This document shows, piece after piece, positions 5,637-64,000 of a DNA stretch of 64,000 nucleotides. The notes under the pieces were generated by a model. It worked only from the letters and a program-made list of their open reading frames with translations. It made no database searches and had not been told where the DNA came from. Position 1 is the stretch's first letter. Each line of letters begins with the position of its first letter. Source of the DNA: a candidate division WOR-3 bacterium (GTDB lineage: Bacteria; Hydrothermota; Tepidihabitantia; SM23-42; JAOAFX01); contig JBBINQ010000007.1 in the NCBI GenBank assembly GCA_037443805.1, forward strand, positions 12,977 to 76,976, given 5' to 3'. A program made the translations under genes and the position numbers.

Positions 5637-6605
5637 ATGCGTAAGATTATCTATCTTATAATAATTTTGGGTATCATTTTTTTATGCTGGCTCCAGCCCT
5701 TTAATATCGGAACGAGAGAAGTCAATATCCCGAAAAATGCTTCTGCCCGTGAGATTGCAAATATTTTAGCAAAAGAAAAGGTTGTTCGTGCAACTACTGA
5801 ATTCTTATTCTGGTTGAAGATTTTAGGTAAAGAAGGCTCTATTCGTTCAGGAAGGTTCCGATTACCAATTTACAAAAATCCAGTCTATGTTATTCAAAAA
5901 CTTGTGCAGGGTGGAAGGAGTGATATTACAATAACCATTCCTGAAGGACTTACCTTAAAAGAAATTGCTGAAATTTTGTATGCAAAGAACATAATCAAAG
6001 ACCAGGACAAATTCCTTGAATTGTGTAATAACAGAAATTTTATAAAAAATTTGGGATTGAATGTTCCATCACTGGAAGGTTATCTTTTTCCTGATACTTA
6101 TTCCTTTGATGAAGATGAGGGTGATGTGAAAATTATAACCAAAATGGTGGAAAATTTAAAAATGCAATTAAAAAAAATTACCACAATACCAGTAGATTCT
6201 TTACAAACGATAATAATTATGGCTTCATTGGTGGAAAAAGAGGCACGTCATGATGAAGAACGACCCATTATTGCCCGTGTTTTCTTTAACCGATTAAAAT
6301 TGGGACGGCCACTTGAATCCTGTGCTACAGTGATATACGCCAAAAAATTAAAAGACCCGCATCTTACAATAACCCATCTTCTAAAAAACGACCTGAAAAT
6401 TGATTCTCCCTATAATACATACCTGCACTATGGTTTACCACCTGGTCCAATCTGTTCACCAGGATTGAGTTCAATAAAATCAGCATTATATCCAGCAGAT
6501 GTTGATTATCTTTATTTTGTTTCCCGTGGGAATGGCTATCACTATTTTTCAAAAACCTATAAAGAACACCTTGCTGCCCAGGAGTATTATAATGCTAAGA
6601 AATGA
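5637..6605 (+). CDS. mltG: Endolytic murein transglycosylase MltG (YceG family)
   Basis: N-terminal TM anchor then YceG-like domain. Conserved LPPGPI and YLYFV motifs near the C-terminus. Confidence 0.8.
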   Translation: MRKIIYLIIILGIIFLCWLQPFNIGTREVNIPKNASAREIANILAKEKVVRATTEFLFWLKILGKEGSIRSGRFRLPIYKNPVYVIQKLVQGGRSDITITIPEGLTLKEIAEILYAKNIIKDQDKFLELCNNRNFIKNLGLNVPSLEGYLFPDTYSFDEDEGDVKIITKMVENLKMQLKKITTIPVDSLQTIIIMASLVEKEARHDEERPIIARVFFNRLKLGRPLESCATVIYAKKLKDPHLTITHLLKNDLKIDSPYNTYLHYGLPPGPICSPGLSSIKSALYPADVDYLYFVSRGNGYHYFSKTYKEHLAAQEYYNAKK

Positions 6606-9012
6606 ATTTGAAGAGATCTTAATTACCCAGTCACCATATTATCAGAAACTCAATAAAATTTATCGCGATTCATTAAATTTTCAGCGTTATCTCACGGTGC
6701 TGAAAAAGATTTCTAATAATGACCCAATCCTGAAACATTTTGAAGAAAAAGAGGGGAAAGAACTTGTCTTTTTAGGGAGAAAGCTCTTCAGTCTCCAGGA
6801 AGAATTTGTATCAAATTATTTAAATTTTCTTAAAGATGAATCAATGATCAGTAAATGGGATGAGTTTTTTGAACGCTATAGTAACACACTTTTTGAAATT
6901 TACAAAAGATTTACCCAAGCTGATGTTTTTAAAATTTTTATTTTTGAGATAGTAAATCGCAAACTATTAAGAGATATTCTTACAAAAGAGGTTGCCCATA
7001 GAACGATTGATGAAAAGGCATTGATTGCAGAGAGATTCGGAGTCGTGATCAACCAATTGTTCAATTATATAAGGCGTTCCCTTACCAGGAATGTGATGGT
7101 GCAAGACCGTCTGATTGTTGATTCTTATGAAAAAATTCCTTTATTCCCCAAAGTAATACGAACAGAAATTACGAAAATGATGGCAAAGATGATTTTACAG
7201 GAAGGTCTGCCCGAACCTTTATTTTCTGCTATTTTAAAACTTCTTTTAAATACCACTTACACCGAAGGGTTGCAGAATCTTATTGATAATATTAAATCAC
7301 TTGGTAAATCATTCAATCGGGAAAAAGTTATGGAGGTAATGCGTAGTCAATTTTTCTTTCCTGATGAAGAAGGCGTACTACAGGTTTTCACTGTTATTCA
7401 AAATGCTGCGCGTGGATTATGTGCTGAAATAAAAAAGAGAAAAGAGGTGTTAGAAAACCAATTAAATCAAATTGAGAATAAAATTATTGAAACCAATCGT
7501 AGTCTGGGTGAGGAGATGGTCAAAATAACCCGCGATTTTTCAACTGAGGAGGCATTGGATATTCAGATAAAAAAATTACGGCGTAACTTAATATCGTTTG
7601 GCTATGATATGAGAAAATTGCGCACTGAATATCAGGAATGCCAAAGGCAGGAAAGTGAAATGGAAGGCATATTGAAATTGAAGCCTGCAGATTTTTTAAA
7701 ATTTATCGTGAAAAATGAATGGGACCCATATCTTCTGTTCCTGATTGGTGAGAAAAAAACAATAGAAGAAGAGACATTTCAGAACCTCGTCAAGGATGTG
7801 ATCAATGAAATAAAGGGTAATAAAGAATTTATTAATAAACTCAATGACCTGCGCATCCCTGGTTTTTTAAAAGAGCGCTATAATACTACTGAAATAATGA
7901 ACAGATTTGAGAATATTGTGAAAAATATTTTTGAACCATTTTTAAAATCAGTTCTTTTAGAAGAGATGGTTGATTATTATCCTAAAGTTACCGGGACGCC
8001 AGCACCTGAAAATATACGCTATATTGCTGAAGAATCAATGAATGGCAGGGTATCAATGGTGGAGAAGGATATCAGTTCTATTACCAAGATTGAAACGCCT
8101 TCAGGATTAAATATTCAGCGATATAAAAATTTAATTTCAGTTCTGACCTATGATATAAGAGGTTCTACCCTGATGGGAACAAAATTACAGAATGCCGCAA
8201 AGGAAAATGAAATAAGAAATCTTTTTCAGGAAAGCATGCTGACCGTTATTGAAAAATTCGGAGGTCTGCCGATAAAAGATACCGGTGATGGCGGGATTAT
8301 TCTTTTTGCCAGCAATAATTATGAATTGAAGAATCAGAAGACCAAAATACCCGCGGCCGGTAGCACCCTTAATGCGGTACGCTGCGGTCTGGAAATGGTG
8401 CGGGAGTCAATCAATTTTGTCCAGGAGAATATTGAGCATTATAAAGATTGGTTTAAAGAAGCCGAGGATAGAAAGATAAATTTTGAGGGGATAACCTATG
8501 CTACTTTGCCCCCCTTGTATCAATCTATATTTCAGATTGGCGTGGGGATTGCATCGGGTGAGTATCCGAGGGAGGTCTATTTAGACCGCAATGCCTTTGG
8601 TGATTTTGATCTCACAGGAATGCTCGTGCGGGAATCAAATTTTTATTCAAAGATAAAAAGCAAAGACAAATCTACTGTAATCTGCGATGATGCCACCATT
8701 TTTAATCTTCTCTTAAATGTTGAGAAATTTTCTTTCTTTGGTGAAACTGGAGTGAAACTTACTGCAGAATCAATGGATATAGAACAGGAACTGGAATACT
8801 GGATTAATCAGAAGATTACACGCCGCGGTTTTATTCTTGACCTCTACAAAATTTTTGCTACAAAGATGGGCGAAGAAATATATCATCCCGGAAGTTTGAA
8901 AATTCTTCTCGGGGTCTTTGATATTACCATAGACGAGACCGGTGAAATAAAAGATGGAAAAGGTGGTCGGGGTAAATTTTTATTTGAACTTTCCTATGAG
9001 GTGCCCAAATGA
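6592..9012 (+). CDS. Large cytoplasmic protein with an about 520 aa helical N-terminal region and a C-terminal class III nucleotidyl-cyclase homology (CHD-like) domain (paralog A)
   Basis: The C-terminal 250 aa follow the CHD pattern. VLTYDIRGST is the counterpart of FaDivGFT, with the first metal Asp. FGGLPIKDTGDGGIILFA is the counterpart of hGGtvdKfiGDavmavFG, with the second metal Asp. IGVGIASGEY...GDFDLTGMLVRES is the counterpart of riGihtGpv..GDtVNlAsRles. STVICDDATIFNLL...FSFFGETGVKLTAES is the counterpart of ilvSeatyelL..f.feelgevelKGk. Start moved to ATG 6592 (MLRNEF), which overlaps the mltG stop by 14 nt. Confidence 0.6.
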   Translation: MLRNEFEEILITQSPYYQKLNKIYRDSLNFQRYLTVLKKISNNDPILKHFEEKEGKELVFLGRKLFSLQEEFVSNYLNFLKDESMISKWDEFFERYSNTLFEIYKRFTQADVFKIFIFEIVNRKLLRDILTKEVAHRTIDEKALIAERFGVVINQLFNYIRRSLTRNVMVQDRLIVDSYEKIPLFPKVIRTEITKMMAKMILQEGLPEPLFSAILKLLLNTTYTEGLQNLIDNIKSLGKSFNREKVMEVMRSQFFFPDEEGVLQVFTVIQNAARGLCAEIKKRKEVLENQLNQIENKIIETNRSLGEEMVKITRDFSTEEALDIQIKKLRRNLISFGYDMRKLRTEYQECQRQESEMEGILKLKPADFLKFIVKNEWDPYLLFLIGEKKTIEEETFQNLVKDVINEIKGNKEFINKLNDLRIPGFLKERYNTTEIMNRFENIVKNIFEPFLKSVLLEEMVDYYPKVTGTPAPENIRYIAEESMNGRVSMVEKDISSITKIETPSGLNIQRYKNLISVLTYDIRGSTLMGTKLQNAAKENEIRNLFQESMLTVIEKFGGLPIKDTGDGGIILFASNNYELKNQKTKIPAAGSTLNAVRCGLEMVRESINFVQENIEHYKDWFKEAEDRKINFEGITYATLPPLYQSIFQIGVGIASGEYPREVYLDRNAFGDFDLTGMLVRESNFYSKIKSKDKSTVICDDATIFNLLLNVEKFSFFGETGVKLTAESMDIEQELEYWINQKITRRGFILDLYKIFATKMGEEIYHPGSLKILLGVFDITIDETGEIKDGKGGRGKFLFELSYEVPK

Positions 9013-11279
9013 ATAAAATTAACATTGTAGATTTGCACAAGATAATTGAAGAACAGACGCAATATCTGGATTTTTTAAAAGAACGATACATTGAGTCAGT
9101 GCGTTTTCAGAAAACAATTGCGGATATAAAAGAAGGACTGGCAATATTAAACTGCCCGTCCGAGATAATCAAAAAATTTGAGGAACTGAAGATCTTTTTC
9201 ATCTGGTTGGGTAGCCCAATTACCCAATATAAAGATTATGAATGGGCACTGTATATTGGCCATAAAAAGATGGGATTGCCCATACCCGCAGGTCTAAAAG
9301 AAAAATGTCCCGAATGTATAATTGCGCTGATTGATAATCTGAAACCATACAAGGCAATCTTTGAATTTAATCAAGAATTAAGAAATTATTCATTGTCCAG
9401 CGATATCTTTTTATTAATTCACCAGTCATTTATCAACGCCCGCGTGGAAAACATCTTACCCAGTTTTCTTGTAGATATTGAGCGAATGACATTCAAAAAC
9501 AATACTGAAGCAATGGAAAAGATACCTTCTGTCTATTTTGACTACCTGTCAGAACCCTCTTTATTAAAGATTTTGAAAAAGATTGGAACGATGCTACAGC
9601 GTGATAAAGAGAGAATCACTGAAGAATTGCGGAGCATTGATTTGTATTCAATGCGATTAAAAGAACAGCTTACGGCACTGTATATGGAAACGAACGCCGG
9701 GCTAAAGGATATTCTTGATAACTTAGTAGCCAAAGGCGCAGATATTGAATTAATAACCCAGAAAACTTCAAATCTTTTTTCCCGCCTGGAAAGATTGTTT
9801 CTTGGTAATGTTTATCATCTTAAGGAATATGACCAGCGGCGCGATGAATTGCAAAAATTTCTAAAAGAAGAAGAAGAGTTGAAACTGTTAGTAGAGAATA
9901 GGAGGCTGGATAAGAAAAAGCCGATCAGCGAATTATTCAGAGAAATTTCATTCTGTTATAAATATGGAGATTTAACACCTCAGGAAGAGAAACTATTTGC
10001 AAAAAATATAATGAGTAATTTTGAGGAATTACATAAGCAGAAACACCGAGACCTGCCACTAATCGCAAAATTTGAAAGAAAAGCCTTGTTGGGCGTTGAC
10101 CTTGATATAAATGCAGTAAAAGAAGCCTATCTTTCATTTATAAAAAAAGAATTGATACCGACCCATATGGGTAATTGTCTATATGATATTGTCAATTGTT
10201 TACCTCCAGGTAGTAAAGAATCTAAGAAAGTGATAAAGGACATCGCCAACTTTACATATTTTCAACTTGAAGGAAAAGAGATTTTGAATGTGCGAAAGAA
10301 GAGTACACCCCTGTCCGATGAATTGCAGAAATTCCTTGAGCAGTACCGAAAGACGATTACTGTGCTGGTCTATGATATTCGTGGTTCCTCATATATGGGT
10401 ATTAAATTGCATAATGCATTAAAAGAACAGCGTATAAAATATAAATTTGCCAAAGAAATGGCAACCATCGGTAAAAATTACGGAGGTTTTTTACTAAAAG
10501 ACACTGGTGACGGAGGTATAATCTGGTTTGCTGATAATTCACAGAGTTTATATAACCACCTTTATACAGAATCTACTACAGGTAAAGGAGTTAATTTGCG
10601 TTATTCAATATTTTCTGGCGCAGAATTAGAATTGATACCGGCTGGAGATGCCGCAAAAAGAGCGATCCAGTGTGCAAGGGATATGGTGATTAAGGCAGAG
10701 GAATTCATTCGTGCAAATTTTGTGCATTATCGCGATTGGTTCGCATCGGTTGCGGAAAGGACAATGGAAGTTGATGGTGTCACCTATGCCCTTTTGCCGC
10801 CTGAATTTAAAACGCTCTTTAGAATTGGTGTGGGTATTGCCTCGGGAATACCAGAAAGGGATGTGGTACTGTCAGCAAATTCTTTTGGTGACCCGGATCT
10901 AGTAGGCCCAATCCTTGCTGATGCACATCTTTATTCTATGGAACGCCAGCCCGGGCGTTCTGTAGTAATCTGTGATTTACCTACATTTATCAATTTTATG
11001 CTGAACACAGAAAATTTTGAATTTCCTATTGATGAATCAGTTTTTGAGAAATATTTAAGGATTCTGGATGATGTTCGCAAACTACCCCATGGGTATCTGT
11101 ATCCAGAGCTGAAGATTTCTATAGCACTCAGGGGATTGCATATTCTTGAGGAACTTGATAAGAAGAGGGCATTATCTGAAATGAAATCGGGTAATTTGCT
11201 GATTGATGAACTCGGCAACATCTATAACGAAGATAAGAAAAAGGCAAAACCCTTCTATGAAATCATACCGATACAATGA
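9009..11279 (+). CDS. Large cytoplasmic protein with an about 440 aa helical N-terminal region and a C-terminal CHD-like nucleotidyl-cyclase homology domain (paralog B, probably catalytically degenerate)
   Basis: VLVYDIRGSS, GGFLLKDTGDGGIIWFA, IGVGIASGIPE...GDPDLVGPILADAH and SVVICDLPTFINFML are collinear with paralog A. The Arg of the VNxAxR element is absent. ATGA overlap with the upstream and downstream genes. Confidence 0.6.
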   Translation: MNKINIVDLHKIIEEQTQYLDFLKERYIESVRFQKTIADIKEGLAILNCPSEIIKKFEELKIFFIWLGSPITQYKDYEWALYIGHKKMGLPIPAGLKEKCPECIIALIDNLKPYKAIFEFNQELRNYSLSSDIFLLIHQSFINARVENILPSFLVDIERMTFKNNTEAMEKIPSVYFDYLSEPSLLKILKKIGTMLQRDKERITEELRSIDLYSMRLKEQLTALYMETNAGLKDILDNLVAKGADIELITQKTSNLFSRLERLFLGNVYHLKEYDQRRDELQKFLKEEEELKLLVENRRLDKKKPISELFREISFCYKYGDLTPQEEKLFAKNIMSNFEELHKQKHRDLPLIAKFERKALLGVDLDINAVKEAYLSFIKKELIPTHMGNCLYDIVNCLPPGSKESKKVIKDIANFTYFQLEGKEILNVRKKSTPLSDELQKFLEQYRKTITVLVYDIRGSSYMGIKLHNALKEQRIKYKFAKEMATIGKNYGGFLLKDTGDGGIIWFADNSQSLYNHLYTESTTGKGVNLRYSIFSGAELELIPAGDAAKRAIQCARDMVIKAEEFIRANFVHYRDWFASVAERTMEVDGVTYALLPPEFKTLFRIGVGIASGIPERDVVLSANSFGDPDLVGPILADAHLYSMERQPGRSVVICDLPTFINFMLNTENFEFPIDESVFEKYLRILDDVRKLPHGYLYPELKISIALRGLHILEELDKKRALSEMKSGNLLIDELGNIYNEDKKKAKPFYEIIPIQ

Positions 11280-12667
11280 AAGTTCTACTTTATCATCCTG
11301 TTTCCAAGCATAAAAATCGTTTAATTGATTATTTAAAGAAATTGAATCTTGAAGTTTTTACGGTATTAAAATCTTCTGCAATAGTGCCAGCAATCAAAAG
11401 ACAAAATATTGATATTATAATAATTCACTTTGATGCAGATAAAGCAATTGCAAACATTGAGAAATCAAAATTTGCGATACCTGTTATCCTCATCGCCTCT
11501 GCCCAGGATAAGATTAATTATGAGAGATTGATTATTCCTGATACGGTCGGTATTATTAGACCACCGTATACATTATCTAATTTAAAGAAAGTTATACAAA
11601 AGGCAATTAAGAAGCGCGAAGAGAATATTTTTAATTTGAAAACAGTTGAGTCGTTAAAAAGAAAAGTAAAAGAAATGGAGACCCTTAATGAGATTGTCAG
11701 GGCAATAAATTCTTCCTTGCGGCCCAAGGAGATTTTAAAAATTATTATGGAGAAGACTGCTGATTTTGTCAAAGCAGAAGGTTGGTCTATCCTTCTGCTT
11801 GATAAAGAGAAACAAGAATTGGTATTTGAGGCGGCGGCTGGTGAGGCGGGTCAGAAATTGATCGGGATTAGATTAAAAATCAATCAGGGGGTTGCGGGTT
11901 GGGTTGCACGCACTGGCAAGCCCTTAATTGTTGAAGATGTGACAAAAGACCCGAGGTTTTATGATGGGGTTGATAAAAAGACAAAATTTATAACAAAGTC
12001 TATTCTCTGTGTACCAATGAAAAGTGGCAATGAAATCCTTGGTGTGGTTGAAGTTGTCAATAAAGTTGGAGGCGAACCATTTACCAAAGATGATTTAGAG
12101 ATCTTTGAAAATCTGGTTCAGCACATAACCATTGCCCTGCGCAATGCCCAGCTCTATAATAAAATGGAAGAGACGAGCATTACCGATGATTTAACAAAAT
12201 TATATAATACACGTTACTGCAATCACATTCTTGATGAATTTATTAGAGAAAGGCTCGCTACCCGGGCAAAGATTTCATTGATATTCTTTGATGTGGACTT
12301 TTTTAAACTGGTTGATGATAATTATGGGCATCTGGTTGGAAGTGAGACCCTGCGCTTGATTGGTGAAAGGGCAAAGGCAGTGATCAGGGATAAAGATATT
12401 GCGGTGCGCTATGGTGGAGATGAGTATATAATTGTCTTGCCGGATACGGACAAACCTACTGCCGCAGTTATTGCTGAAAGGATAAGAAAAGCGATTGAAG
12501 AAAAACCATTTCCTGCACAGGATGGCAAAAGTTTCAATGTAACAGTTACCCTTGGCGTTGCTACCTTTCCTGAAGATGCACTTTCGCGTGATGATTTGAT
12601 TGGTCGCGCAGATAAGGCAATGTACGAAGGTAAGATGACGGGTCGGAACAGGGTCGTTGTTGTCTGA
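11276..12667 (+). CDS. Diguanylate cyclase with an N-terminal REC-like (probable pseudo-receiver) domain, a GAF domain and a C-terminal GGDEF domain (GGDEY variant, I-site RxxD present)
   Basis: REC-like N-terminus lacks the acidic pocket (KVLLYHPVSKH; IIIIHFDAD). GAF region has ...VAGWVARTGKPLIVEDV.... GGDEF region has DDLTKLYNTRY...RDKDIAVRYGGDEYIIVLPDT. Confidence 0.8.
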   Translation: MKVLLYHPVSKHKNRLIDYLKKLNLEVFTVLKSSAIVPAIKRQNIDIIIIHFDADKAIANIEKSKFAIPVILIASAQDKINYERLIIPDTVGIIRPPYTLSNLKKVIQKAIKKREENIFNLKTVESLKRKVKEMETLNEIVRAINSSLRPKEILKIIMEKTADFVKAEGWSILLLDKEKQELVFEAAAGEAGQKLIGIRLKINQGVAGWVARTGKPLIVEDVTKDPRFYDGVDKKTKFITKSILCVPMKSGNEILGVVEVVNKVGGEPFTKDDLEIFENLVQHITIALRNAQLYNKMEETSITDDLTKLYNTRYCNHILDEFIRERLATRAKISLIFFDVDFFKLVDDNYGHLVGSETLRLIGERAKAVIRDKDIAVRYGGDEYIIVLPDTDKPTAAVIAERIRKAIEEKPFPAQDGKSFNVTVTLGVATFPEDALSRDDLIGRADKAMYEGKMTGRNRVVVV

Positions 12668-56005: not shown

Positions 56006-56680
56006 ATGGAAAACATAATTAATATTTTTCTAAATCCAGGCTCAGTATTTAAAAGAATAAAAGAAAAGCCAGAATGGCTATTACCATTGTTGGTCGTGCT
56101 TGTTGCTCTCGCAATAATAGCGATCCTGACAATTTCAGCAACACAGGATTTGATTACTGCTCAGCAGATAGAAGCACTTAAACAGCGCAATATGACCGAT
56201 GAACAGATTGAACAGGCTTTGAAATTTTCTTCAGGTCCAATATTGTTCATTTTTGGTGGTCTTGGTGCAATTATCAATACTGTGGTTATCCTCTTGATTT
56301 TTTCTGCGCTGTTGAATCTCTTTATTCCAATGTTTGGTGGCGAAGGTTCATTTAAAATGGTCTTTTCAGTTGTTTCTTTTTCTGCTCTTGTAAAAATACC
56401 CGGGAACATAATACGGTTAATACTGGTCCTTTTAAAGCATTCACTTCAGGTAAGTACATCCATTGCCCTTTTTATTCCCAATCTTAATACCCATTCAATT
56501 GCTTATAGACTATTGAACCAATTTGATTTTTTTATATTCTGGGAAATGTGCCTTGTTGCCTATGGTATACACATTACCAATAGTTTGAAAAAGGAGAATA
56601 GTTATATTCTGGTCTTTGCTATCTGGCTTGCATCAATTCTCTTGAGTATTGCGCTTGGTGGAATATTTGGCGCAAAATAG
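56006..56680 (+). CDS. Yip1-domain membrane protein
   Basis: IFLNPGSVFKRIKEKPEWLLPLLVV start and a 5-TM layout typical of bacterial Yip1/DUF1282 proteins. Confidence 0.55.
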   Translation: MENIINIFLNPGSVFKRIKEKPEWLLPLLVVLVALAIIAILTISATQDLITAQQIEALKQRNMTDEQIEQALKFSSGPILFIFGGLGAIINTVVILLIFSALLNLFIPMFGGEGSFKMVFSVVSFSALVKIPGNIIRLILVLLKHSLQVSTSIALFIPNLNTHSIAYRLLNQFDFFIFWEMCLVAYGIHITNSLKKENSYILVFAIWLASILLSIALGGIFGAK

Positions 56681-56820
56681 AAACAGATAAAAAGAACAAC
56701 GCAGAGTAGAATAATTTAGCTGAACATATATATTAATCCATAATAAAAATCATAGGAATTTTTTTTATAATATCGTATACTTGATTTTAGTAGATGATTG
56801 TGTATAATACTTAAATCCAT

Positions 56821-58065
56821 ATGTGGATATTAATTTATTTAACATTTGAAATTGATTCTCTGTCTTTAAATCAGGTAATTGATATTGCATTAAGACAGAG
56901 TCCGAACTATTTAGAGTCACGGGAGAACCTGGCAAAGTCCCGTGTGCAATTTTATCAAGCACTTTCTTTTCTATTGCCCACCAATACAACGACTGGAACC
57001 TGGACACATAGTGAATTTAATAATATACAAACTGAAAAGTATACAGGCTCAACAAATTTCTCTATGCCGGTTTTTGATTTAGATGTGATCAGCTCAATTG
57101 TTATTGCAAAGGGGCAGGAAAAAGGGAGTGCAATACAGCACGAGCAGACCATAGCCAATTTAATTCTTAATCTAAAAAAATCTTATTATAATCTCATTAC
57201 GGCGAATGAACTGCTGAATTCGTCACAAAAGGCACAGGAGCGAGCACTGGAGAATAAAAAACTTGTGGAAACAAAATATAATCTCGGTTCAGCATCAAAA
57301 TTGGAATTACTTCAGGCTGAAGCCTTCTATCTACAGACTTTGCAAAATGTTTCTCAGGCAAAGACACTGGAAATGCAGGCGCAACAGGAATTAAAAGCAA
57401 TGCTCAATATTGAACACAAAATTTATCCGCTGGATTCACTAATTATCCCTGATACTTTTTTATTACCCTCTATTGATTCATTAAGGCTGATTTTAGAAAA
57501 GGTAAATTTAAGTATTAAACTGGCAAAACAGATGAGCAGTTTGTCAAAAGTAAATCTCTGGTTTTCTATGTTTGCTTTTTTACCTAAGATTTCACTCTTT
57601 TATGGATACAGTGCAAGCCTTGATTCCTTTGTCTTTGATTTTGATGTGTGGCGCGAACATTCCACAAAAAATTATGGTGTGAATATTACATTTCCGATAT
57701 TTGAAATTAAAAATTTGATCTTTAATTATCTTACGGCAAAGAAGGATATGAGGATTAAGGAATACAATAAGCAGAGTGCAATCCTTGAATCAGAAAAGTT
57801 ATTACATACGACTTATTATAGTCTGCAGGAATCAATTGACAAATTAAATTTTGCCAGAAAAAGTTTAGAGGTGGCTGAAGAGGCAATCATACTCGGACGC
57901 GAGCAGTATAGCCTGGGTGTAATCTCTCTTCTTGATTTTTTACGCACAGAAGAGGAATACTACAATGCCCGGATTAATCTATCAAGGGCACTCAGTGATT
58001 TTTATACTAATCAGGCAATGCTCTCTTTTTTGTTAGGAAAGTTAACCATTGAGGAGTCAAAATGA
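56821..58065 (+). CDS. TolC-like outer-membrane efflux protein
   Basis: Two-repeat coiled-coil architecture with equatorial motifs (LLQAEAFYLQ, LDFLRTEEEYYNARINL). Precedes the MacA/MacB genes. Confidence 0.7.
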   Translation: MWILIYLTFEIDSLSLNQVIDIALRQSPNYLESRENLAKSRVQFYQALSFLLPTNTTTGTWTHSEFNNIQTEKYTGSTNFSMPVFDLDVISSIVIAKGQEKGSAIQHEQTIANLILNLKKSYYNLITANELLNSSQKAQERALENKKLVETKYNLGSASKLELLQAEAFYLQTLQNVSQAKTLEMQAQQELKAMLNIEHKIYPLDSLIIPDTFLLPSIDSLRLILEKVNLSIKLAKQMSSLSKVNLWFSMFAFLPKISLFYGYSASLDSFVFDFDVWREHSTKNYGVNITFPIFEIKNLIFNYLTAKKDMRIKEYNKQSAILESEKLLHTTYYSLQESIDKLNFARKSLEVAEEAIILGREQYSLGVISLLDFLRTEEEYYNARINLSRALSDFYTNQAMLSFLLGKLTIEESK

Positions 58066-59189
58066 AAAAGATAATTTTAGTTATAGGTATAGCAATTGTG
58101 ATAATTTTGATTCTTGTATTGAATCTGACACAGAAAACAAAGGGTGAAAGCGTTGAAATAGAGATTGTGAAAAAGGGTGAAGTTGTATCCAGGGTGAGTG
58201 CAGATGGTGAACTCAAAGCAAAGTCACAGGTGGATATCTCGGCAGAAACAATTGGTCGGGTAAAAAAGATTTATTACAAAGAGGGCGATTTCATAAAAAA
58301 GGGTAGCCTTTTAATTGAACTTGATGATATCCAGGCACAGGCAAATTATGAGCTTGCTAAGGCACAACTCAAACAGGCAGAGCAGGTTTTTAAACGCATA
58401 CATAGTCTATATGAAAAAGGGCTAATAAGCGAGGAGAATTTTGAGACCGCAGAATTGAATTACCAGTCTGCAAAGGCAAGATATGACCAGACACTGGATG
58501 CCTATCAGAAAACAAAAATCTATGCACCAATATCCGGTAAAATAATGAAATTAAATATTGAAGAAGGTGAGACAGCAGTAATGGGAACAATGAATTATGC
58601 GGGCACGGTTCTGGCAACCATTGCCGATATGTCGCGATTGATTGCAGTGGTAAAAATAGATGAGACCGAAGTTCCGCAGGTAAAGGTAGGACAGGAGGCA
58701 GAGGTGATTGCAGATGCCCTGCCCGATTCAATATTTAAAGGAATCGTGACCAAAGTCGGTTTGATGCCTATTACTTCAATTACTACCACAGAAAAGATGA
58801 CTGATTTTGAAGTGGAAATAGAATTAGAGAATTTTTCCTCAAACCTGAGACCCGGAATGAATGTTAAGGCAGAGATTATTACCAACAAAAAAACTGATAT
58901 ACCGGTTGTACCTATCCAGGCAGTGGGAAAAAGAAAAATAAAAGATAAACTTACTGAATCAATTTTTGTCGTGCAAAATAATAAGGCATTATTAAAAGAG
59001 GTTCAAACAGGTATATCCAGTGATACTGAAATAGAGATTATTTCTGGTGTTAATGAAGGTGATACGGTCATCAGTGGTCCATATCGGGTATTATCAAAAT
59101 TGAAGGATGGTTCAGGAGTGGAAATTAAACAAACAACGAAAAATAAAACGGTCAGCGATAATGTGAAACCAGTGACCAGTGACCAGTGA
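58062..59189 (+). CDS. Periplasmic adaptor (membrane fusion protein, MacA/HlyD family)
   Basis: N-terminal TM, lipoyl/coiled-coil hairpin, beta-barrel ([18 protein letters not shown]). Confidence 0.8.
59169..59189 (+). repeat. Perfect heptanucleotide tandem repeat (ccagtga x3) at the macA stop / macB start junction
   Basis: ccagtgaccagtgaccagtga read directly. Encodes the ...VTSDQ* tail of the adaptor. Confidence 0.6.
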
Positions 59190-59193
59190 CAAA

Positions 59194-59865
59194 ATGCTCT
59201 GCCGGGCAATAGATATCCATAAAAAATATAGTCTGGGCAAGGTTGAGATTGAGGCATTACGCGGTGTGAGTTTAGAGATTGTAGAAAATGAGTATCTTTC
59301 TATTATGGGTCCATCAGGCTCTGGTAAGTCAACTTTGATGCATATCCTTGGTTGTCTTGATACACCGACAAAGGGAGAATATTTTCTTGAAGATAAAAAG
59401 GTTTCAGATTATACAGATGCAGAACTGGCAAGAATTAGAAATATTTCTATTGGTTTTGTATTTCAGAGTTTTAATCTTTTAACCAGGCTTTCTGCACTGG
59501 AAAATGTTGCCCTGCCTTTGTTATATGCCCAGGTGAATAAAAAAGAAAGAATTGAACGGGCAAAAGAAATTTTATCAAAGGTCGGCCTTGCTGAAAGAAT
59601 GTATCATCGTCCCAATGAATTGTCAGGTGGAGAATGTCAGCGTGTAGCTATTGCACGGGCACTGGTTAACCGACCCAAAATCGTTTTTGCTGATGAACCG
59701 ACAGGAAACCTTGATACAAAGACCGGCAAAGAGATTATGGAATTATTTGATAGACTCCATGCTGAGGGCAATACTATTGTGCTCGTTACCCATGACCAAA
59801 ATATTGCCAACCATGCAAAACGGGTGATAAAAATTATTGATGGCAGGATTGCAAATGGGTTATGA
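59194..59865 (+). CDS. MacB/LolD-type ABC transporter ATP-binding protein
   Basis: Walker [13 protein letters not shown] signature [15 protein letters not shown]. Walker [13 protein letters not shown]. Confidence 0.85.
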
Positions 59866-61112
59866 ATAGCATAACTGAAATCATTGGTTTAGCGGTTCAA
59901 ACTTTTAAATCCCATCGGATGCGTTCTTTTTTGACAACGCTGGGTATTATCATTGGCGTGACCACGGTCATTGCGATTTTATCTTTGATTGAGGGCTTAA
60001 ATCAATCAGTAGCGAGTCAGATCCGTTCCATTGGTTCGGACTTGATATTTGTCACCAAATATTCAATGGTGAGAATGGGCCCACCAAATTTTGAAGATAT
60101 CGCAAAGAGACCGGATCTGACACCGGATGATGCTCTTGCACTTAAACAACTTTCCTCAGTAGTAACTGCAGTTCCGACGATTGAACAAAATTTTACCAAA
60201 TTAAAATATAAAGACAAAGAGGTTGCAATGACCTCAATTGAAGGCTCAACTGAAGATTTTTCAAAAGTTCACAATTATATTGTAGAGATTGGCAGGGACC
60301 TTAATGCTGATGATATACTACACAAAAGAAATGTTGGCATTATCGGTTCCTATGTTGCAAAAAATCTGTTCAGTGATGAATTACCCATTGGTAAGGATTT
60401 GAATATTGGCGCACACCGCATAAAGATTATTGGAGTATACAAAGAAAAAGGTTCATTTCTGGGTCAGAGTATGGACAATTTAATTACCATCCCTTATCCA
60501 TTTTATGAGAAGATTTTTCCTACCAGAAAAAGGACGAGTATATATGAGCGGGCTTTCGGTGGCTATACAATAAGTGTGATGCCAAAATCAGGCAAGGTTG
60601 AAGAGGCAATGGATGAGATCCGCGAACTGATGAGGCGAAGGCACAGCTTGCGCCTTGACCAGCCGGATGATTTTGAATTGGGAACCCAGCAGATGCTGTT
60701 TGAAATTTATCAAAATATTACCCGTGTTGGTTTTGTAGCAATTATCGCAATTGCCGCAATATCTTTGATAGTTGGTGGCATTGGGATAATGAATATTATG
60801 CTCGTCTCAGTTGCGGAAAGGACAAGGGAGATCGGTATTCGCAAGGCAGTAGGTGCTTCAAATCAAAATATTCTGCTCCAGTTTATTACCGAATCTGTTG
60901 TTCTGTCCCTTGTCGGTGGTGTTATCGGTATTATCCTGGGTATACTCCTTGCCTGGTTAATTTCAGCGGTTTCACCGCTTAAGGCAGCAGTTGCGCCCTG
61001 GATGATTATATTAGGCTTTGGTTTTTCTTCTGCGGTTGGAATCTTCTTTGGCATATATCCTGCACGCAAAGCTGCCTCATTAAATCCGATTGAGGCATTA
61101 AGATATGAATAA
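59862..61112 (+). CDS. MacB/FtsX-family ABC transporter permease with periplasmic MacB_PCD domain
   Basis: N-terminal TM, about 230 aa periplasmic domain, C-terminal 3-TM FtsX domain ([18 protein letters not shown]). Confidence 0.8.
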
Positions 61113-61151: not shown

Positions 61152-61179
61152 TTGACGCAGAAATTTTCCTGAATATAAT
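61152..61179 (+). promoter_or_regulatory. Sigma-70 type promoter TTGACG-16-TATAAT ending 6 nt before the ATG of the GGDEF-STAND gene (leaderless)
   Basis: ttgacg at 61152-61157, tataat at 61174-61179, ATG at 61186. Confidence 0.5.
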
Positions 61180-61185
61180 TTAATA

Positions 61186-64000
61186 ATGAAGCGAGAAGAG
61201 ATTTACTATGATGAGTTGACCGGAATTTATAACCGGCGATTTTTACACTACTGGATGGACAATGAAATCAAGAGGGCGAATCGTTTTGCGACAAAATTTG
61301 GAATTATTATGATTGACCTTGATAATTTCCGTGAGGTCAATAACAATTATGGTCATCTTGAAGGTGATAGGGTGTTAATTGAATTTAGCAAATTCCTGAA
61401 AAATAACATAAGGGAAGTAGATAATCTTGTGCGCTATGGTGGTGATGAGTTTATTATCCTTGTTCCCAATACTGATACCTCAGGAGTTTTAGAACTTGCG
61501 CAGAGGATTCTCTCCAATTTAAATAAGAGTTCTATTACTGGTTATAAAATTTTCTGTAGTATTGGTTTTGCGGTCTATCCTGATGATGGCGCCAATCTTG
61601 AGACTTTAATAAATCAGGCAGACCGATTAATGTATCAGGCAAAGAAAGATGGCAAAAATCGTATTGGGTTAAAAGCTGAAGTTATCAGGAAATTAGAGAT
61701 TCCGGTAAAAGTGCTCGTAGGCAGAGAACAAGAACTTGGACAATGTCTGCGTCAATTAAAAGAATATAATACACTTTTTATCAGTGGCGAAGCAGGTGTG
61801 GGTAAGACCAGGCTTGCCCTGGAAATAAAAAATCTATTTCCTGACTGTGTGTATTTAAGGGCAAACTCCTATGCCGCATTGACAACAGTTCCATACCATC
61901 CCTTCCATAATATGTTCAAGGAGATTGTTATGCAGGATTTTGTTCTTACCCAGCGGGTATTAAAACAGATGCCGGAGATTATGCGCCTTGAAATAATGAA
62001 ATTATTACCGGAAGATAAAATCGTTCCTGCAAAAATTGAAGGGCTTGATAAATTCCGTCTTTTTGAAAGTGTCAATATGTTTTTTAATATACTCACTGAA
62101 TTATCATTACCGGGCCAGATTATTCTTCTTATGGATGATCTACACTGGACCGACCGTTCAAGCTGTGAATTATTGGACTTTGTAATAAGAAGTGCCTCCA
62201 CCAATTTTAAAATTCTGGGCACATATCGCACTGAAGAGATAAAAAATGCATCAATCTTTGAATTTTTAGGAATATGGGCAAGGGAAAATTTATATTCAAA
62301 ACTTGAATTATTGCCTTTAAGTGAATCCCAGACCTTTAAATTTCTTGAATTGGTAATGGGCAGTGTTTCTCAAGCTACGGCAAAATTTATTTATAACCTG
62401 AGCGGTGGCAATCCATTCTATACCGAAGAGATACTTCGTGAACTGGAGAGGCAGAACAAGATTTTTTATAATGGTAAAGAATGGGTTATTCTTATAGAAC
62501 GGGAATTAAAAATTCCTTCAAGCATTGAATCAACAATACACCGTAAAATAGAGTTTCTTGATACTGAAACAAAAGAAATTTTAAATATCGCGGCAGTCTA
62601 TGGTCAGGAGTTCAGCGATGAAATACTTGCCCTTTGCGCACAGAAAAATGTTGGTGAAATAATGGATGCCATTGACCATTTAATTAAACTGGGTTTTATT
62701 AAGGTAAGGGGAAGCGAACTCTTCTTTTTCAGTGAGGATATTGTTAGACAAATAGTCTATAAAAATATCAATCGGGCAGATTTGCTGAAATATCACCGGC
62801 AGGTAGGAGATACAATTGAAAAATATTTTCATAGTAGTCTTCTCATTTATTATGAGCAACTTGCCCATCATTTTACCATTGCCAATGACCCAGCAAGGGC
62901 ACTTTATTATTCGCGGAGGGCAGGGATAAAATGTATGGAAAATTATGCACATGAGCAGGCAGTAGGATTTTTTACAAATGCCCTGAAGTTTGAAGATAAC
63001 ATTGAAGAGATATTTAAGATAAAATCTGACCTTTCTGAAATCTATTTTTTGATGGGAAAGAGTGATAAGGCAATAGATAATCTTAATGCCTGTTTAAAAA
63101 TAAATCCTCAGGACTATAAAATTTACTACAAGCTTGGTCAGATCAATGAAAATATTGGTGATTACAAAAAGGCACTGGGCTATTTTAAACAGGGTCTGAA
63201 AATAACTGCGCAATCCAGTTCATCCTATCAATTCAGGGCCGGTATAGTCTGGATTTACACAAGAATGGGACAGTATCTCAAGGCAAAAAAGGAGTGCGAA
63301 CAACTATTAAAAAAGGAAAAACAGATACCAAAACAGGAACTTGCTATTATTCTGATCACTTATGGAGTTGTTTTATTACACCTTGGTGACCTTGAAGGGT
63401 CAATTTCATATTTTAAAAAGGCACTGGATATTCGTCAGAAATTGGGCGACAAAAAAGGAATGGCTGCCTGCTATCTGGATATGGCGGTCGTTTACCAACA
63501 GCAACTGAATTTTTCTATCAGTGAAGAATACTATAAAAATGCACTTAAACTCTATGAAGAGATTGGCTATCAAGCAGGTATTATGATTACGCTTTTAGAT
63601 CTGGGCTCACTCTATTTTCATTACAACTTAATTAAGGCTGAAGAATATTGTAATAAAGGGCTGAGAATTGCAAAATTAACTGGAGCAAAGCGTGACATTG
63701 TTTTCCTTTATGATAATCTCGGGTCAATAAGTCTTCGTCGCTTAATGCTTGATGAGGCTTTAAGCAGTTTTAAAAGAGCACTCCAATATGCTGAGGAAAC
63801 AGATTTTACTGAGGGTAAGAATTTTATTAATATTCACTTAAGTGAATATTATCGGGAAACCGGTAAGAAAAAGAAAGGTTTTGTTCATTTAAAAAAGGCA
63901 TATATATATGCAAAGAAATTGAATTTAAAACAATTTATTTATGATTGTCAATTTGAAGAGATTGAGTATTTGCTCCTGAATAAGAACTTTAAAAAGGCAA
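61186..64000 (+). CDS. Multidomain signalling protein with N-terminal GGDEF diguanylate cyclase, STAND/AAA_16 P-loop NTPase and C-terminal TPR repeats (3' partial, runs off the window; absent from the ORF track because it has no stop)
   Basis: Hand translation from ATG 61186 is open to the window end. GGDEF with I-site (REVDNLVRYGGDEFIIL). Walker A LFISGEAGVGKTRLA. Walker B-like IILLMDDLHWTD. At least 8 TPR-like repeats after about residue 560. Confidence 0.75.
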   Translation, partial: MKREEIYYDELTGIYNRRFLHYWMDNEIKRANRFATKFGIIMIDLDNFREVNNNYGHLEGDRVLIEFSKFLKNNIREVDNLVRYGGDEFIILVPNTDTSGVLELAQRILSNLNKSSITGYKIFCSIGFAVYPDDGANLETLINQADRLMYQAKKDGKNRIGLKAEVIRKLEIPVKVLVGREQELGQCLRQLKEYNTLFISGEAGVGKTRLALEIKNLFPDCVYLRANSYAALTTVPYHPFHNMFKEIVMQDFVLTQRVLKQMPEIMRLEIMKLLPEDKIVPAKIEGLDKFRLFESVNMFFNILTELSLPGQIILLMDDLHWTDRSSCELLDFVIRSASTNFKILGTYRTEEIKNASIFEFLGIWARENLYSKLELLPLSESQTFKFLELVMGSVSQATAKFIYNLSGGNPFYTEEILRELERQNKIFYNGKEWVILIERELKIPSSIESTIHRKIEFLDTETKEILNIAAVYGQEFSDEILALCAQKNVGEIMDAIDHLIKLGFIKVRGSELFFFSEDIVRQIVYKNINRADLLKYHRQVGDTIEKYFHSSLLIYYEQLAHHFTIANDPARALYYSRRAGIKCMENYAHEQAVGFFTNALKFEDNIEEIFKIKSDLSEIYFLMGKSDKAIDNLNACLKINPQDYKIYYKLGQINENIGDYKKALGYFKQGLKITAQSSSSYQFRAGIVWIYTRMGQYLKAKKECEQLLKKEKQIPKQELAIILITYGVVLLHLGDLEGSISYFKKALDIRQKLGDKKGMAACYLDMAVVYQQQLNFSISEEYYKNALKLYEEIGYQAGIMITLLDLGSLYFHYNLIKAEEYCNKGLRIAKLTGAKRDIVFLYDNLGSISLRRLMLDEALSSFKRALQYAEETDFTEGKNFINIHLSEYYRETGKKKKGFVHLKKAYIYAKKLNLKQFIYDCQFEEIEYLLLNKNFKKA

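What the first reader, a model, noticed from the sequence alone, without database searches (positions are those of the whole stretch)
61152..64000. N-terminal GGDEF fused to a STAND NTPase and TPR array (gene continues beyond window)
The ORF has no stop in the window, so it is missing from the ORF track. It encodes a complete GGDEF domain with I-site at the N-terminus, then an AAA_16/STAND P-loop (GEAGVGKT; hhhhDDLHW), then at least 8 TPR repeats. STAND-TPR switches usually regulate C-terminal or N-terminal effector domains, as in AfsR/MalT and the LuxR-type adenylate cyclases. A GGDEF effector in this position would place c-di-GMP synthesis under an NTP-dependent oligomerisation switch. Together with the 6.6-12.7 kb locus it shows a heavy investment in nucleotide signalling.
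Basis: seen in the sequence. Interest (0 to 1): 0.55.

Follow-up and report, generated by a model that had tools for sequence, protein, structure and literature searches.

The report
STAND-gated diguanylate cyclase (GGDEF–NTPase–TPR)
The end of the window holds a real, intact gene for an enzyme that makes the bacterial signal c-di-GMP, fused to a MalT-type ATP-driven switch and a repeat-built sensor; the layout is common in uncultured bacteria, is labelled only "diguanylate cyclase" in databases, and has no experimental study that I could find.

Summary
An ORF starts at ATG 61186 (not 61152, which is a promoter −35 box) and stays open to the window end (938 codons). Pfam finds GGDEF at residues 7–159 (152 bits), AAA_16 at 177–338 (50 bits), and TPR repeats from about 570.

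The fusion is not an artefact. More than 100 homologues of about 1050 aa exist. The closest (96% identical) runs 114 residues further to a stop.

Across 114 homologues these motifs are invariant or nearly so: GGDEF, the RxxD I-site, the metal- and guanine-binding residues, Walker A, Walker B and GGNPF.

An AlphaFold model (pLDDT 90.5) matches three solved structures:
- the STAND–TPR protein PH0952 (Foldseek E 7e-18);
- GGDEF domains (rmsd about 1.5 Å).

The architecture is widespread. 134 of the best 150 cluster representatives carry it, from WOR-3, Hydrothermae, Aegiribacteria, Planctomycetia and Aminicenantes. The closest NTPase relatives carry a class III cyclase or a LuxR domain instead.

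Most likely mechanism, inferred only: an inducer at the TPR sensor permits ATP-dependent oligomerisation, which pairs the N-terminal GGDEF domains for c-di-GMP synthesis under I-site feedback. I found no paper describing this family. Interest is moderate.

The parts
61152..61179 (+). Promoter-like site TTGACG-16 nt-TATAAT. The −10 box ends 6 nt before the ATG and there is no Shine-Dalgarno sequence, so the mRNA is probably leaderless.
   Evidence: The site matches 11 of 12 consensus positions. The TTGAC and TATAAT blocks and their 6–9 nt spacing to the ATG are the only conserved columns in the upstream regions of 7 orthologues spanning 96% to 46% protein identity. Many other genes in the window show the same TATAAT-then-start layout.
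61186..64000 (+). ORF for the GGDEF–STAND–TPR protein. The first 938 codons lie in the window; about 114 codons lie beyond it.
61204..61662 (+). GGDEF diguanylate cyclase domain (residues 7–159). No N-terminal sensor or stalk helix precedes it.
61411..61422 (+). Inhibitory I-site RxxD (R76-E-V-D79), five residues upstream of GGDEF.
   Evidence: R76 and D79 are each conserved in 114 of 114 homologues. 124 of 134 distant fused representatives keep RxxD.
61438..61452 (+). Active-site motif G85-G-D-E-F89.
   Evidence: G85, G86 and D87 are each 114/114 and E88 is 113/114. The metal ligands D44 and D46 and the guanine-binding N52 are each present in 113 of 114 sequences, the remaining one being a gap. 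The guanine-binding D61 is 114/114.
61663..61713 (+). Short linker (residues 160–176) between the GGDEF domain and the NTPase. It contains the invariant P173.
   Evidence: The model has pLDDT below 50 at residues 164–166. P173 is 114/114.
61714..62763 (+). STAND nucleotide-binding oligomerisation module (residues 177–526): NBD about 177–350, helical domain about 358–422, winged helix about 426–526.
61786..61809 (+). Walker A P-loop GEAGVGKT (residues 201–208).
   Evidence: G201, G204, G206, K207 and T208 are each 114/114.
62119..62139 (+). Walker B IILLMDD (residues 312–318), followed by LHW.
   Evidence: D317 is 113/114, D318 is 110/114 and W321 is 114/114.
62404..62418 (+). GGNPF (GxP) motif of the helical domain (residues 407–411), followed by the invariant E414 and E415.
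   Evidence: The same motif is present in the class III cyclase–STAND paralogue and aligns with it.
62773..62880 (+). Helical 'arm' hairpin (residues 530–565) between the winged helix and the sensor.
   Evidence: The model has helices H530–547 and H549–565. Assigning them as the arm is an inference by analogy with MalT and PH0952.
62890..63999 (+). TPR/SUPR sensor array (residues 569–938 in the window). It continues to residue 1046 in the orthologue.
56006..61112 (+). Conserved upstream neighbours: Yip1, the TolC-like OEP, a membrane-fusion protein, an ABC ATPase and a MacB-type permease. These are context only; no functional link is shown.
   Evidence: Pfam assignments are. The same genes in the same order lie upstream in all 5 orthologous loci that include upstream DNA, with the one exception that Yip1 is not found in L004; these orthologues run down to 46% identity. 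The neighbours are absent next to the ~30%-identity clade.

Best explanation
The gene encodes a cytoplasmic diguanylate cyclase whose catalytic GGDEF domain sits at the extreme N-terminus of a MalT-type STAND switch (NBD–HD–WHD, then an arm, then a TPR sensor).

Proposed mechanism:
1. In the resting state the NTPase holds ADP, and contacts with the arm and sensor keep it closed. The protein is monomeric, so the GGDEF domains cannot pair.
2. An unknown inducer, either a small molecule or a peptide/protein, binds the MalT-domain-III-like TPR sensor and releases the autoinhibition.
3. ADP is exchanged for ATP and the NOD multimerises.
4. The short 17-residue linker brings neighbouring N-terminal GGDEF domains together. 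Two GTP-loaded half-sites then condense to c-di-GMP.
5. Product binding at the RxxD I-site caps the output, and ATP hydrolysis (Walker B DD) resets the switch.

What is shown: the domain identities, the intact and conserved catalytic, I-site and NTPase motifs, the MalT/PH0952-like fold, the full-length conservation, and a promoter-like site of its own conserved upstream of the orthologues.

What is inferred: enzyme activity, ATP-dependent oligomerisation, coupling of oligomerisation to catalysis, and the existence and nature of an inducer.
For: Domain identity. GGDEF scores 152 bits, AAA_16 scores 50.5 bits and TPR models match. TIGR00254 scores 163 bits.

Conservation in 114 homologues running down to about 30% identity. 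G85, G86 and D87 are 114/114 and E88 is 113/114. I-site R76 and D79 are 114/114. Metal ligands D44 and D46 and guanine-binding N52 are each present in 113 of 114 sequences, the remaining one being a gap. D61 is 114/114; it is Asp rather than the Ser of Hypr cGAMP synthases, which points to GTP specificity. Walker A G-x-x-G-x-G-K-T is 114/114, Walker B D317 and D318 are 113 and 110 of 114, R348 is 112/114, and N409 and P410 of GGNPF are 114/114.

The same residues stay invariant or nearly so in 41 much more distant fused proteins at 18–35% identity.

Geometry. Only about 6 residues precede the GGDEF domain. The usual N-terminal sensor or stalk that pairs GGDEF domains is therefore absent, and regulation must come from the C-terminal side.

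Family knowledge. [quoted passage not shown] STAND proteins multimerise on inducer binding after ADP-to-ATP conversion (abstract of PMC6468293).

The same NOD scaffold carries other dimerisation-dependent or proximity-activated effectors. A Guanylate_cyc–AAA_16 protein in a WOR-3 genome is 28% identical over 457 residues (E 6e-33). Deltaproteobacterial cyclase–AAA_16–TPR proteins and an AAA_16–GerE protein are also close relatives, and kinase and cyclase versions are picked up by the family profile.

Purifying selection. Against the closest relative, 106 codons differ synonymously and 42 non-synonymously, with no indels in 2896 nt.
Against: - No activity, nucleotide-binding or oligomerisation data exist for any member that I could find.
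- The coordinates of the single-chain AlphaFold model were not available to the analysis tools, so I could not check whether the GGDEF active site is occluded in the modelled state.
- The inducer is unknown, and the TPR array could equally bind proteins.
- The GRN arginine of many GGDEF domains is lysine here (K157, 113/114). The change is conservative but untested.
- Conserved catalytic residues do not prove that oligomerisation, rather than some other input, controls activity.
Confidence: 0.6

Rival explanations
1. Scaffold or local-signalling enzyme. The TPR array is a docking platform that tethers a more or less constitutive cyclase to partner proteins, for example the neighbouring MacB–TolC-type exporter or the OmpA-like protein. 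The NTPase then serves assembly or chaperone-like roles rather than gating catalysis.
Against: The gene has its own conserved promoter-like site. The neighbourhood is lost in the ~30%-identity clade and in other phyla, while the three-module architecture is kept. Invariant Walker A, Walker B and GxP motifs indicate a working nucleotide switch. With no dimerising element, a lone GGDEF domain should be poorly active.
Confidence: 0.17
2. Anti-phage STAND (Avs-like) sensor. The TPR domain recognises a phage protein, and the oligomerised GGDEF effector emits a cyclic dinucleotide alarm.
For: The N-effector–STAND–TPR layout is that of Avs proteins. Avs3 (8dgc) is the second Foldseek hit, at E 1.2e-12. 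GGDEF domains occur rarely in NTP-dependent conflict systems (Kaur et al. 2020).
Against: PADLOC models match only generic TPR, with no Avs or other defence NTPase hit. The gene sits at a fixed chromosomal position among housekeeping genes such as NadA, a sigma factor and HtrA, and the syntenic orthologues run from 96% down to 46% identity. That is a vertical, core-gene pattern rather than a defence island. No linked cyclic-dinucleotide-activated effector is seen.
Confidence: 0.05
3. The GGDEF domain is a nucleotide sensor, not an enzyme. It binds GTP or c-di-GMP through the A- or I-site, and this feeds into the STAND module, whose output is something else.
For: Degenerate GGDEF domains acting as receptors are known, and the I-site is perfectly conserved.
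Against: All catalytic residues, not only the I-site, are invariant or nearly so across 114 homologues and nearly so in 41 distant ones. No other output domain exists in the 1052-aa protein.
Confidence: 0.05
4. The fusion is artefactual, or the gene is a pseudogene truncated or frameshifted just beyond the window.
For: The window ends inside the ORF. The window's own downstream DNA could not be retrieved: an exact search of metagenome contigs found nothing.
Against: More than 100 homologues of 1046–1061 aa cover 100% of the query. A relative with 94.4% identical DNA aligns without gaps to the window end and continues 342 nt to a stop.
Confidence: 0.01

Closest known systems
MalT (E. coli) and PH0952 (Pyrococcus horikoshii): MalT-clade STAND ATPases with a TPR/SUPR sensor
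   Different: The effector is an N-terminal enzyme (GGDEF) rather than a C-terminal LuxR DNA-binding domain, and the full-length orthologue has no HTH. Sequence identity is low, about 12–17% in the structural alignments. The inducer is unknown.
Class III nucleotidyl cyclase–AAA_16–TPR(–LuxR) proteins, e.g. M. tuberculosis Rv0386, Rv1358 and Rv2488c
   Same: They have the same order of modules: an N-terminal nucleotide-cyclising palm-type enzyme that needs dimerisation, then a MalT-type ATPase, then TPR. The NODs are clearly homologous. A Guanylate_cyc–AAA_16 protein from a WOR-3 genome is 28% identical over 457 residues, including the GGNPFYxEE motif. A deltaproteobacterial cyclase–AAA_16–TPR protein is 25% identical over 668 residues. 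The TIGR03903 kinase/cyclase-fusion model also hits residues 299–609.
   Different: The catalytic domain is GGDEF (making c-di-GMP, with an I-site) rather than Guanylate_cyc (making cAMP or cGMP). There is no C-terminal LuxR domain. For the mycobacterial proteins, how the ATPase/TPR part regulates activity is also unknown; the TPR-dependent role is described as unknown.
Canonical sensor-coupled diguanylate cyclases (PleD, WspR, DgcZ, the bacteriophytochrome DGC)
   Same: The GGDEF domain is homologous and apparently fully competent, with an I-site. The sequence search of solved structures gives E 6.9e-35 to 6d9m and 1.8e-26 to PleD. Structural matches have rmsd 1.4–2.0 Å.
   Different: In those enzymes the regulatory domain is N-terminal and pairs the GGDEF domains through a helical stalk. 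Here nothing precedes the GGDEF domain, and the whole regulatory apparatus (about 890 aa) lies on its C-terminal side.
Avs (antiviral STAND) proteins, e.g. Avs3
   Same: They share the N-terminal effector, STAND NTPase and C-terminal TPR sensor layout. Avs3 gives Foldseek E 1.2e-12.
   Different: No PADLOC defence model matches the NTPase. The gene is a syntenic core gene rather than part of a defence island. The effector is a signalling enzyme, not a nuclease or protease.

Membership tests
GGDEF diguanylate cyclases (PF00990 / TIGR00254) | Domain HMM above the curated threshold | tested here: met
   PF00990 scores 152.4 bits against a cutoff of 23.8. TIGR00254 scores 163.1 bits against 37.4.
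GGDEF diguanylate cyclases (PF00990 / TIGR00254) | Active-site GG[D/E]EF motif, metal-binding Asp residues and guanine-binding Asn/Asp | tested here: met
   GGDEF lies at residues 85–89, with D44 and D46, N52 and D61. All are invariant or nearly so in 114 homologues. D61 is Asp, as in canonical enzymes, not the Ser of Hypr enzymes.
GGDEF diguanylate cyclases (PF00990 / TIGR00254) | RxxD I-site five residues upstream of GGDEF (product inhibition) | tested here: met
   R76-E-V-D79 is present, and R76 and D79 are each 114/114.
GGDEF diguanylate cyclases (PF00990 / TIGR00254) | GGDEF fold | tested here: met
GGDEF diguanylate cyclases (PF00990 / TIGR00254) | Synthesis of c-di-GMP from 2 GTP | not testable with these tools
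   This needs an enzyme assay.
STAND NTPases, MalT/AAA_16 clade | P-loop NTPase with Walker A GxxGxGK[ST] and Walker B hhhhDD | tested here: met
   GEAGVGKT lies at residues 201–208 and IILLMDD at 312–318. Both are conserved. AAA_16 scores 50.5 bits against a cutoff of 32.6.
STAND NTPases, MalT/AAA_16 clade | Tripartite NOD (NBD, helical domain with GxP motif, winged helix) | tested here: met
STAND NTPases, MalT/AAA_16 clade | C-terminal repeat sensor domain (TPR/SUPR) after an arm | tested here: met
STAND NTPases, MalT/AAA_16 clade | Inducer- and ATP-dependent multimerisation | not testable with these tools
   This needs SEC-MALS or cryo-EM with nucleotides.
MalT/LAL (large ATP-binding LuxR) transcription activators | C-terminal LuxR/GerE helix-turn-helix | tested here: not met
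   No GerE hit is recorded for the full-length orthologues, and the P0001 sequence ends in TPR helices. The protein is therefore not a member, although it shares the scaffold.
Class III cyclase–STAND (Rv0386-like) | N-terminal Guanylate_cyc (PF00211) catalytic domain | tested here: not met
   The N-terminal domain is GGDEF, and there is no PF00211 hit. The NOD is homologous, so this is a sister architecture, not a member.
Avs / defence STAND NTPases | Match to curated defence-system NTPase models, and location in variable defence islands | tested here: not met
   PADLOC gives only generic TPR hits. The gene has a conserved syntenic core-genome position.

The most novel reading that the evidence does not exclude
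N-terminal GGDEF–STAND–TPR/HEAT proteins are a large, unstudied class of diguanylate cyclases. In them, c-di-GMP synthesis is switched on by ATP-dependent NOD oligomerisation acting from the C-terminal side of the catalytic domain. This input logic differs from all characterised DGCs. In WOR-3-type bacteria the class appears as a single, vertically inherited, MalT-like sensor of an intracellular metabolite or peptide.
Probability: 0.5. Interest if true: 0.55.

Novelty: new variant of a known kind. Interest (0 to 1): 0.4.

Why it matters
All characterised diguanylate cyclases pair their GGDEF domains through an N-terminal sensor, receiver or stalk. A cyclase with no N-terminal extension, followed by about 890 residues of MalT-type switch, would add a new input mode to c-di-GMP signalling: induced proximity by a nucleotide-driven oligomeriser.

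It would also give a tractable enzymatic read-out, c-di-GMP, for studying STAND activation. The regulation of its long-known cyclase–STAND cousins, such as Rv0386, is still unexplained.

The family is abundant in uncultured lineages (WOR-3, Hydrothermae, Aegiribacteria, Planctomycetia, Aminicenantes), where almost nothing is known about second-messenger control.

The excitement has limits. The architecture is already present in databases, labelled simply 'diguanylate cyclase'. The mechanism is the one a specialist would predict from the domain order.

Tried and rejected
1. Retrieving the window's own downstream DNA. I therefore relied on the 94.4%-identical contig L001.

2. Foldseek against AFDB50. 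The library was not available.

3. Taxonomy of distant representatives through cluster look-up. The sources give only 'diguanylate cyclase' with no organism. Taxon names came instead from the genome scan and the profile search.

4. Literature. Six full-text searches found no paper describing a GGDEF–STAND fusion. They covered GGDEF with STAND, AAA_16, 'STAND NTPase', 'signal transduction ATPases with…', and MalT/TPR/P-loop, and WOR-3 with c-di-GMP. The one 'AAA_16' co-occurrence was a reagent catalogue number. Kaur et al. 2020 mention rare GGDEF domains only in vWA–MoxR conflict systems.

5. Defence-system reading. Rejected for lack of PADLOC NTPase hits and because of the core-gene synteny.

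6. Hypr (cGAMP-making) GGDEF. Rejected because the specificity residue is an invariant Asp.

7. Operon membership with the upstream MacB-type transporter. This is not supported as an obligate feature. There is a 73-nt gap containing a conserved near-consensus promoter-like site, and the neighbourhood is absent from more distant family members.

8. Several genome-scan hits with long match spans turned out to be ordinary GGDEF proteins with unrelated N-terminal parts, judging by ORF extraction. These were L014, L018, L020, L027, L055 and L057. I did not pursue them.
Full report
**Observation**

Translating from ATG 61186 gives 938 residues with no stop up to the last complete codon of the window. 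In the same frame, two stops lie just upstream, and no ATG, GTG or TTG falls between the last of them and 61186. The gene therefore starts at 61186.

The quoted motifs are all present:
- RYGGDEF at residues 83–89;
- REVD at residues 76–79, five residues upstream;
- GEAGVGKT at residues 201–208;
- IILLMDDLHW at residues 312–321.

Pfam gives GGDEF at residues 7–159 (E 1.2e-44, 152 bits), AAA_16 at 177–338 (50.5 bits, cutoff 32.6) and many TPR models from about residue 580 onward, including TPR_MalT. NCBIfam gives TIGR00254 at 163 bits. It also matches residues 299–609 to the kinase/cyclase–STAND fusion family TIGR03903, at 94 bits, far below that model's full-length cutoff.

**Is the fusion real?**

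A search of the 5.8-billion-protein collection returned more than 100 proteins of 1046–1061 aa that cover 100% of the query. Identity runs from 96% down to about 30%. Nearly all named ones come from candidate division WOR-3, and where a name is given it is 'diguanylate cyclase'.

The closest, P0001, has 1052 aa. Its contig aligns to the window at 94.4% DNA identity over 2896 nt with no gap and runs 342 nt further to TAA. Codon differences are 106 synonymous and 42 non-synonymous. So about 114 residues, two to three further TPR pairs and a capping helix, lie beyond the window.

**Are the modules functional?**

I aligned 114 full-length homologues. The counts for residues needed for diguanylate cyclase chemistry are:
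- G85, G86 and D87: 114/114; E88: 113/114.
- Metal-binding D44 and D46: 113 of 114 sequences, the remaining one being a gap.
- Guanine-binding N52: 113 of 114, again with one gap; D61: 114/114.
- K153: 114/114.
- I-site R76 and D79: 114/114.

D61 corresponds to the position that is Ser in Hypr cGAMP-forming GGDEFs and Asp in canonical enzymes (PMC6456294). The product should therefore be c-di-GMP.

In the NTPase:
- the Walker A glycines, K207 and T208 are 114/114;
- Walker B D317 and D318 are 113 and 110 of 114;
- W321 is 114/114 and R348 is 112/114;
- in the GGNPF motif, N409 and P410 are 114/114, and E414 and E415 after it are also 114/114.

The TPR region is less conserved, with the C-terminal 130 residues the least. 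That pattern fits a sensor region.

**Structure**

An AlphaFold2 model of P0001, built with a 64-sequence alignment, has mean pLDDT 90.5 and pTM 0.76. Its layout is:

| Residues | Element |
|---|---|
| about 1–160 | GGDEF domain |
| 160–176 | linker, low confidence at 164–166 |
| about 177–350 | α/β NBD |
| 358–422 | helical domain |
| 426–526 | winged helix with two β-hairpins |
| 530–565 | helical hairpin (arm) |
| 569–1032 | twelve TPR-like helix pairs |
| 1035–1046 | capping helix |

Foldseek against the PDB puts PH0952 first (6mfv_A, E 6.9e-18, 718 columns). PH0952 is the crystal structure of a resting STAND with a TPR sensor and a MalT homologue. Avs3 comes second, and GGDEF domains match at TM 0.85–0.89 normalised to the target.

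**Relatives and distribution**

The species-representative genome scan was swamped by ordinary GGDEF genes. It still found two co-linear matches spanning GGDEF plus NOD outside WOR-3:
- a Planctomycetia MAG protein of 1374 aa with GGDEF (as AGDEF), AAA_16 and HEAT repeats;
- an Aminicenantes MAG protein of at least 1083 aa with GGDEF and AAA_16.

A full HMMER scan of 1.84 billion 50%-identity cluster representatives with residues 1–620 shows how common the layout is. 134 of the best 150 representatives carry an N-terminal G/A/SGDEF motif followed by a P-loop within 300 residues. Of these, 79 have GGDEF, 53 AGDEF and 2 SGDEF; 124 keep RxxD; the median length is 1081 aa.

Pfam on 41 of these, at 18–35% identity to each other, finds GGDEF and AAA_16 in 41/41, TPR_12 in 33/41, TPR_MalT in 31/41 and HEAT_2 in 7/41. 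The key catalytic and P-loop residues remain invariant or nearly so.

A profile search adds members named from Candidatus Aegiribacteria and Candidatus Hydrothermae. It also pulls in, at comparable scores, giant proteins in which the same NOD–TPR scaffold carries Guanylate_cyc or protein-kinase domains.

The nearest non-GGDEF relatives of the NOD are:
- Guanylate_cyc–AAA_16–TPR proteins, including one only 3 kb from the orthologue in another WOR-3 genome, 28% identical over 457 residues at E 6e-33;
- deltaproteobacterial cyclase–AAA_16–TPR proteins;
- an AAA_16–GerE LAL-type regulator.

The protein is therefore best described as a MalT-clade STAND scaffold on which a GGDEF domain occupies the N-terminal effector slot. 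Better-known relatives such as Rv0386 fill that slot with a class III cyclase.

**Genomic context and expression**

Upstream lie Yip1, a TolC-like OEP, a membrane-fusion protein, an ABC ATPase and a MacB-type permease. All five orthologous loci that include upstream DNA show the same genes in the same order, down to 46% identity, except that Yip1 is not found in L004. Downstream there is usually a convergent OmpA-like gene and a 171-aa cNMP-binding protein. The ~30%-identity clade and the other phyla lack this neighbourhood. It may therefore be lineage synteny rather than a functional coupling.

The 73-nt gap before the gene contains TTGACG-16-TATAAT (11 of 12 consensus positions), ending 6 nt before the ATG, with no Shine-Dalgarno sequence. 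In seven orthologues the −35 block, the −10 block and the ATG are essentially the only conserved columns of the upstream region. This indicates an own promoter and probably a leaderless transcript.

A quick survey shows the same layout before many other genes of this window. Only 17 of 39 genes have an SD core.

The surrounding genes are housekeeping: NadA, an M23 peptidase, DUF1015, a 2-hydroxyacid dehydrogenase, a sigma-70 factor, HtrA and a proteasome-type subunit.

**Mechanism**

Established knowledge has two parts. GGDEF catalysis needs two GTP-loaded domains to pair (PMC7825114 abstract). STAND proteins convert from ADP-bound closed monomers to ATP-bound multimers when an inducer relieves arm and sensor autoinhibition.

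In this protein nothing precedes the GGDEF domain. The usual pairing device is missing, and the only candidate for bringing two catalytic domains together is the NOD, 17 residues downstream.

I therefore favour, at about 0.6, inducer- and ATP-dependent oligomerisation as the on-switch, I-site feedback as the limiter, and ATP hydrolysis as the reset. Every step beyond domain identity and motif integrity is an inference.

The rivals are:
- a TPR-mediated scaffold or local-signalling role without NTP gating (0.17);
- an Avs-like anti-phage sensor (0.05), disfavoured by PADLOC and by the core-gene synteny;
- a non-catalytic nucleotide-sensing GGDEF (0.05), disfavoured by the complete conservation of the catalytic residues;
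- an artefact or pseudogene (0.01).

**Novelty and verdict**

The domain order is already present in public databases under the generic name 'diguanylate cyclase'. Six full-text searches found no paper that describes or tests a GGDEF–STAND protein. The only nearby remark concerns rare GGDEF domains in vWA–MoxR conflict systems.

I rate it a new variant of a known kind: a STAND switch with an N-terminal nucleotide-cyclising effector, where the effector is GGDEF. It is real, intact, conserved and widespread, and it has a predictable but untested mechanism. Interest is 0.4.

Noticed in passing
window 61152-61185: A near-consensus promoter-like site, TTGACG-16-TATAAT, ends 6 nt before the ATG, and there is no Shine-Dalgarno sequence. 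The −35 block, −10 block and ATG spacing are conserved in 7 orthologues while the rest of the intergenic region is not. The transcript is probably leaderless.
   Followed up: partly
window, upstream of the starts at 16210, 34553, 39160, 41076(-), 42897, 50964, 56006 and 56821: Many genes have a TATAAT-like box 6–11 nt upstream of the start codon and no SD core; only 17 of 39 surveyed genes have GGAG/GAGG/AGGA. Leaderless mRNAs may be common in this organism.
   Followed up: partly
window 6499-12667: Two large overlapping ORFs (837 aa and 756 aa) have no Pfam hit at E ≤ 0.001. They are followed, with overlapping stop and start, by a GAF–GGDEF protein at 11276–12667 (GGDEF 138 bits). This is the only other GGDEF gene in the window.
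   Followed up: partly
L004 14099-16804 (WOR-3 genome GCA_039802305.1): A 901-aa Guanylate_cyc–AAA_16 protein lies 3 kb downstream of the GGDEF–STAND orthologue. Its NOD is 28% identical to this protein's over 457 residues. The two effector versions of one scaffold sit side by side in one genome.
   Followed up: partly
window 56006-61112; L002, L004, L006, L007, L089: The gene order Yip1, TolC-like OEP, membrane-fusion protein, ABC ATPase and MacB permease lies immediately upstream of the cyclase gene in orthologues down to 46% identity, except that Yip1 is not found in L004. A convergent OmpA/CarboxypepD_reg protein and a 171-aa cNMP-binding protein usually lie downstream. No functional link is known.
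   Followed up: partly
L008 5956-10077 (Planctomycetia MAG); representatives P0137–P0265: A large subgroup of the family has AGDEF instead of GGDEF (53 of 134 representatives) and is often longer, at 1200–1500 aa. HEAT repeats occur at the C-terminus of the Planctomycetia protein in L008 and in 7 of the 41 diverse representatives scanned.
   Followed up: partly
P0129, P0142, P0255 (3024–3257 aa); P0289, P0293, P0297, P0300 (~2300 aa): Giant proteins carry the same NOD–TPR scaffold. P0129 and P0142 match the query in three separate stretches and P0255 in two. The ~2300-aa proteins carry zinc-ribbon and Guanylate_cyc domains.
   Followed up: no
window 1804-4491: An 895-aa protein has an N-terminal TMEM260-like protein O-mannosyltransferase domain (109 bits) and C-terminal TPR repeats.
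   Followed up: no
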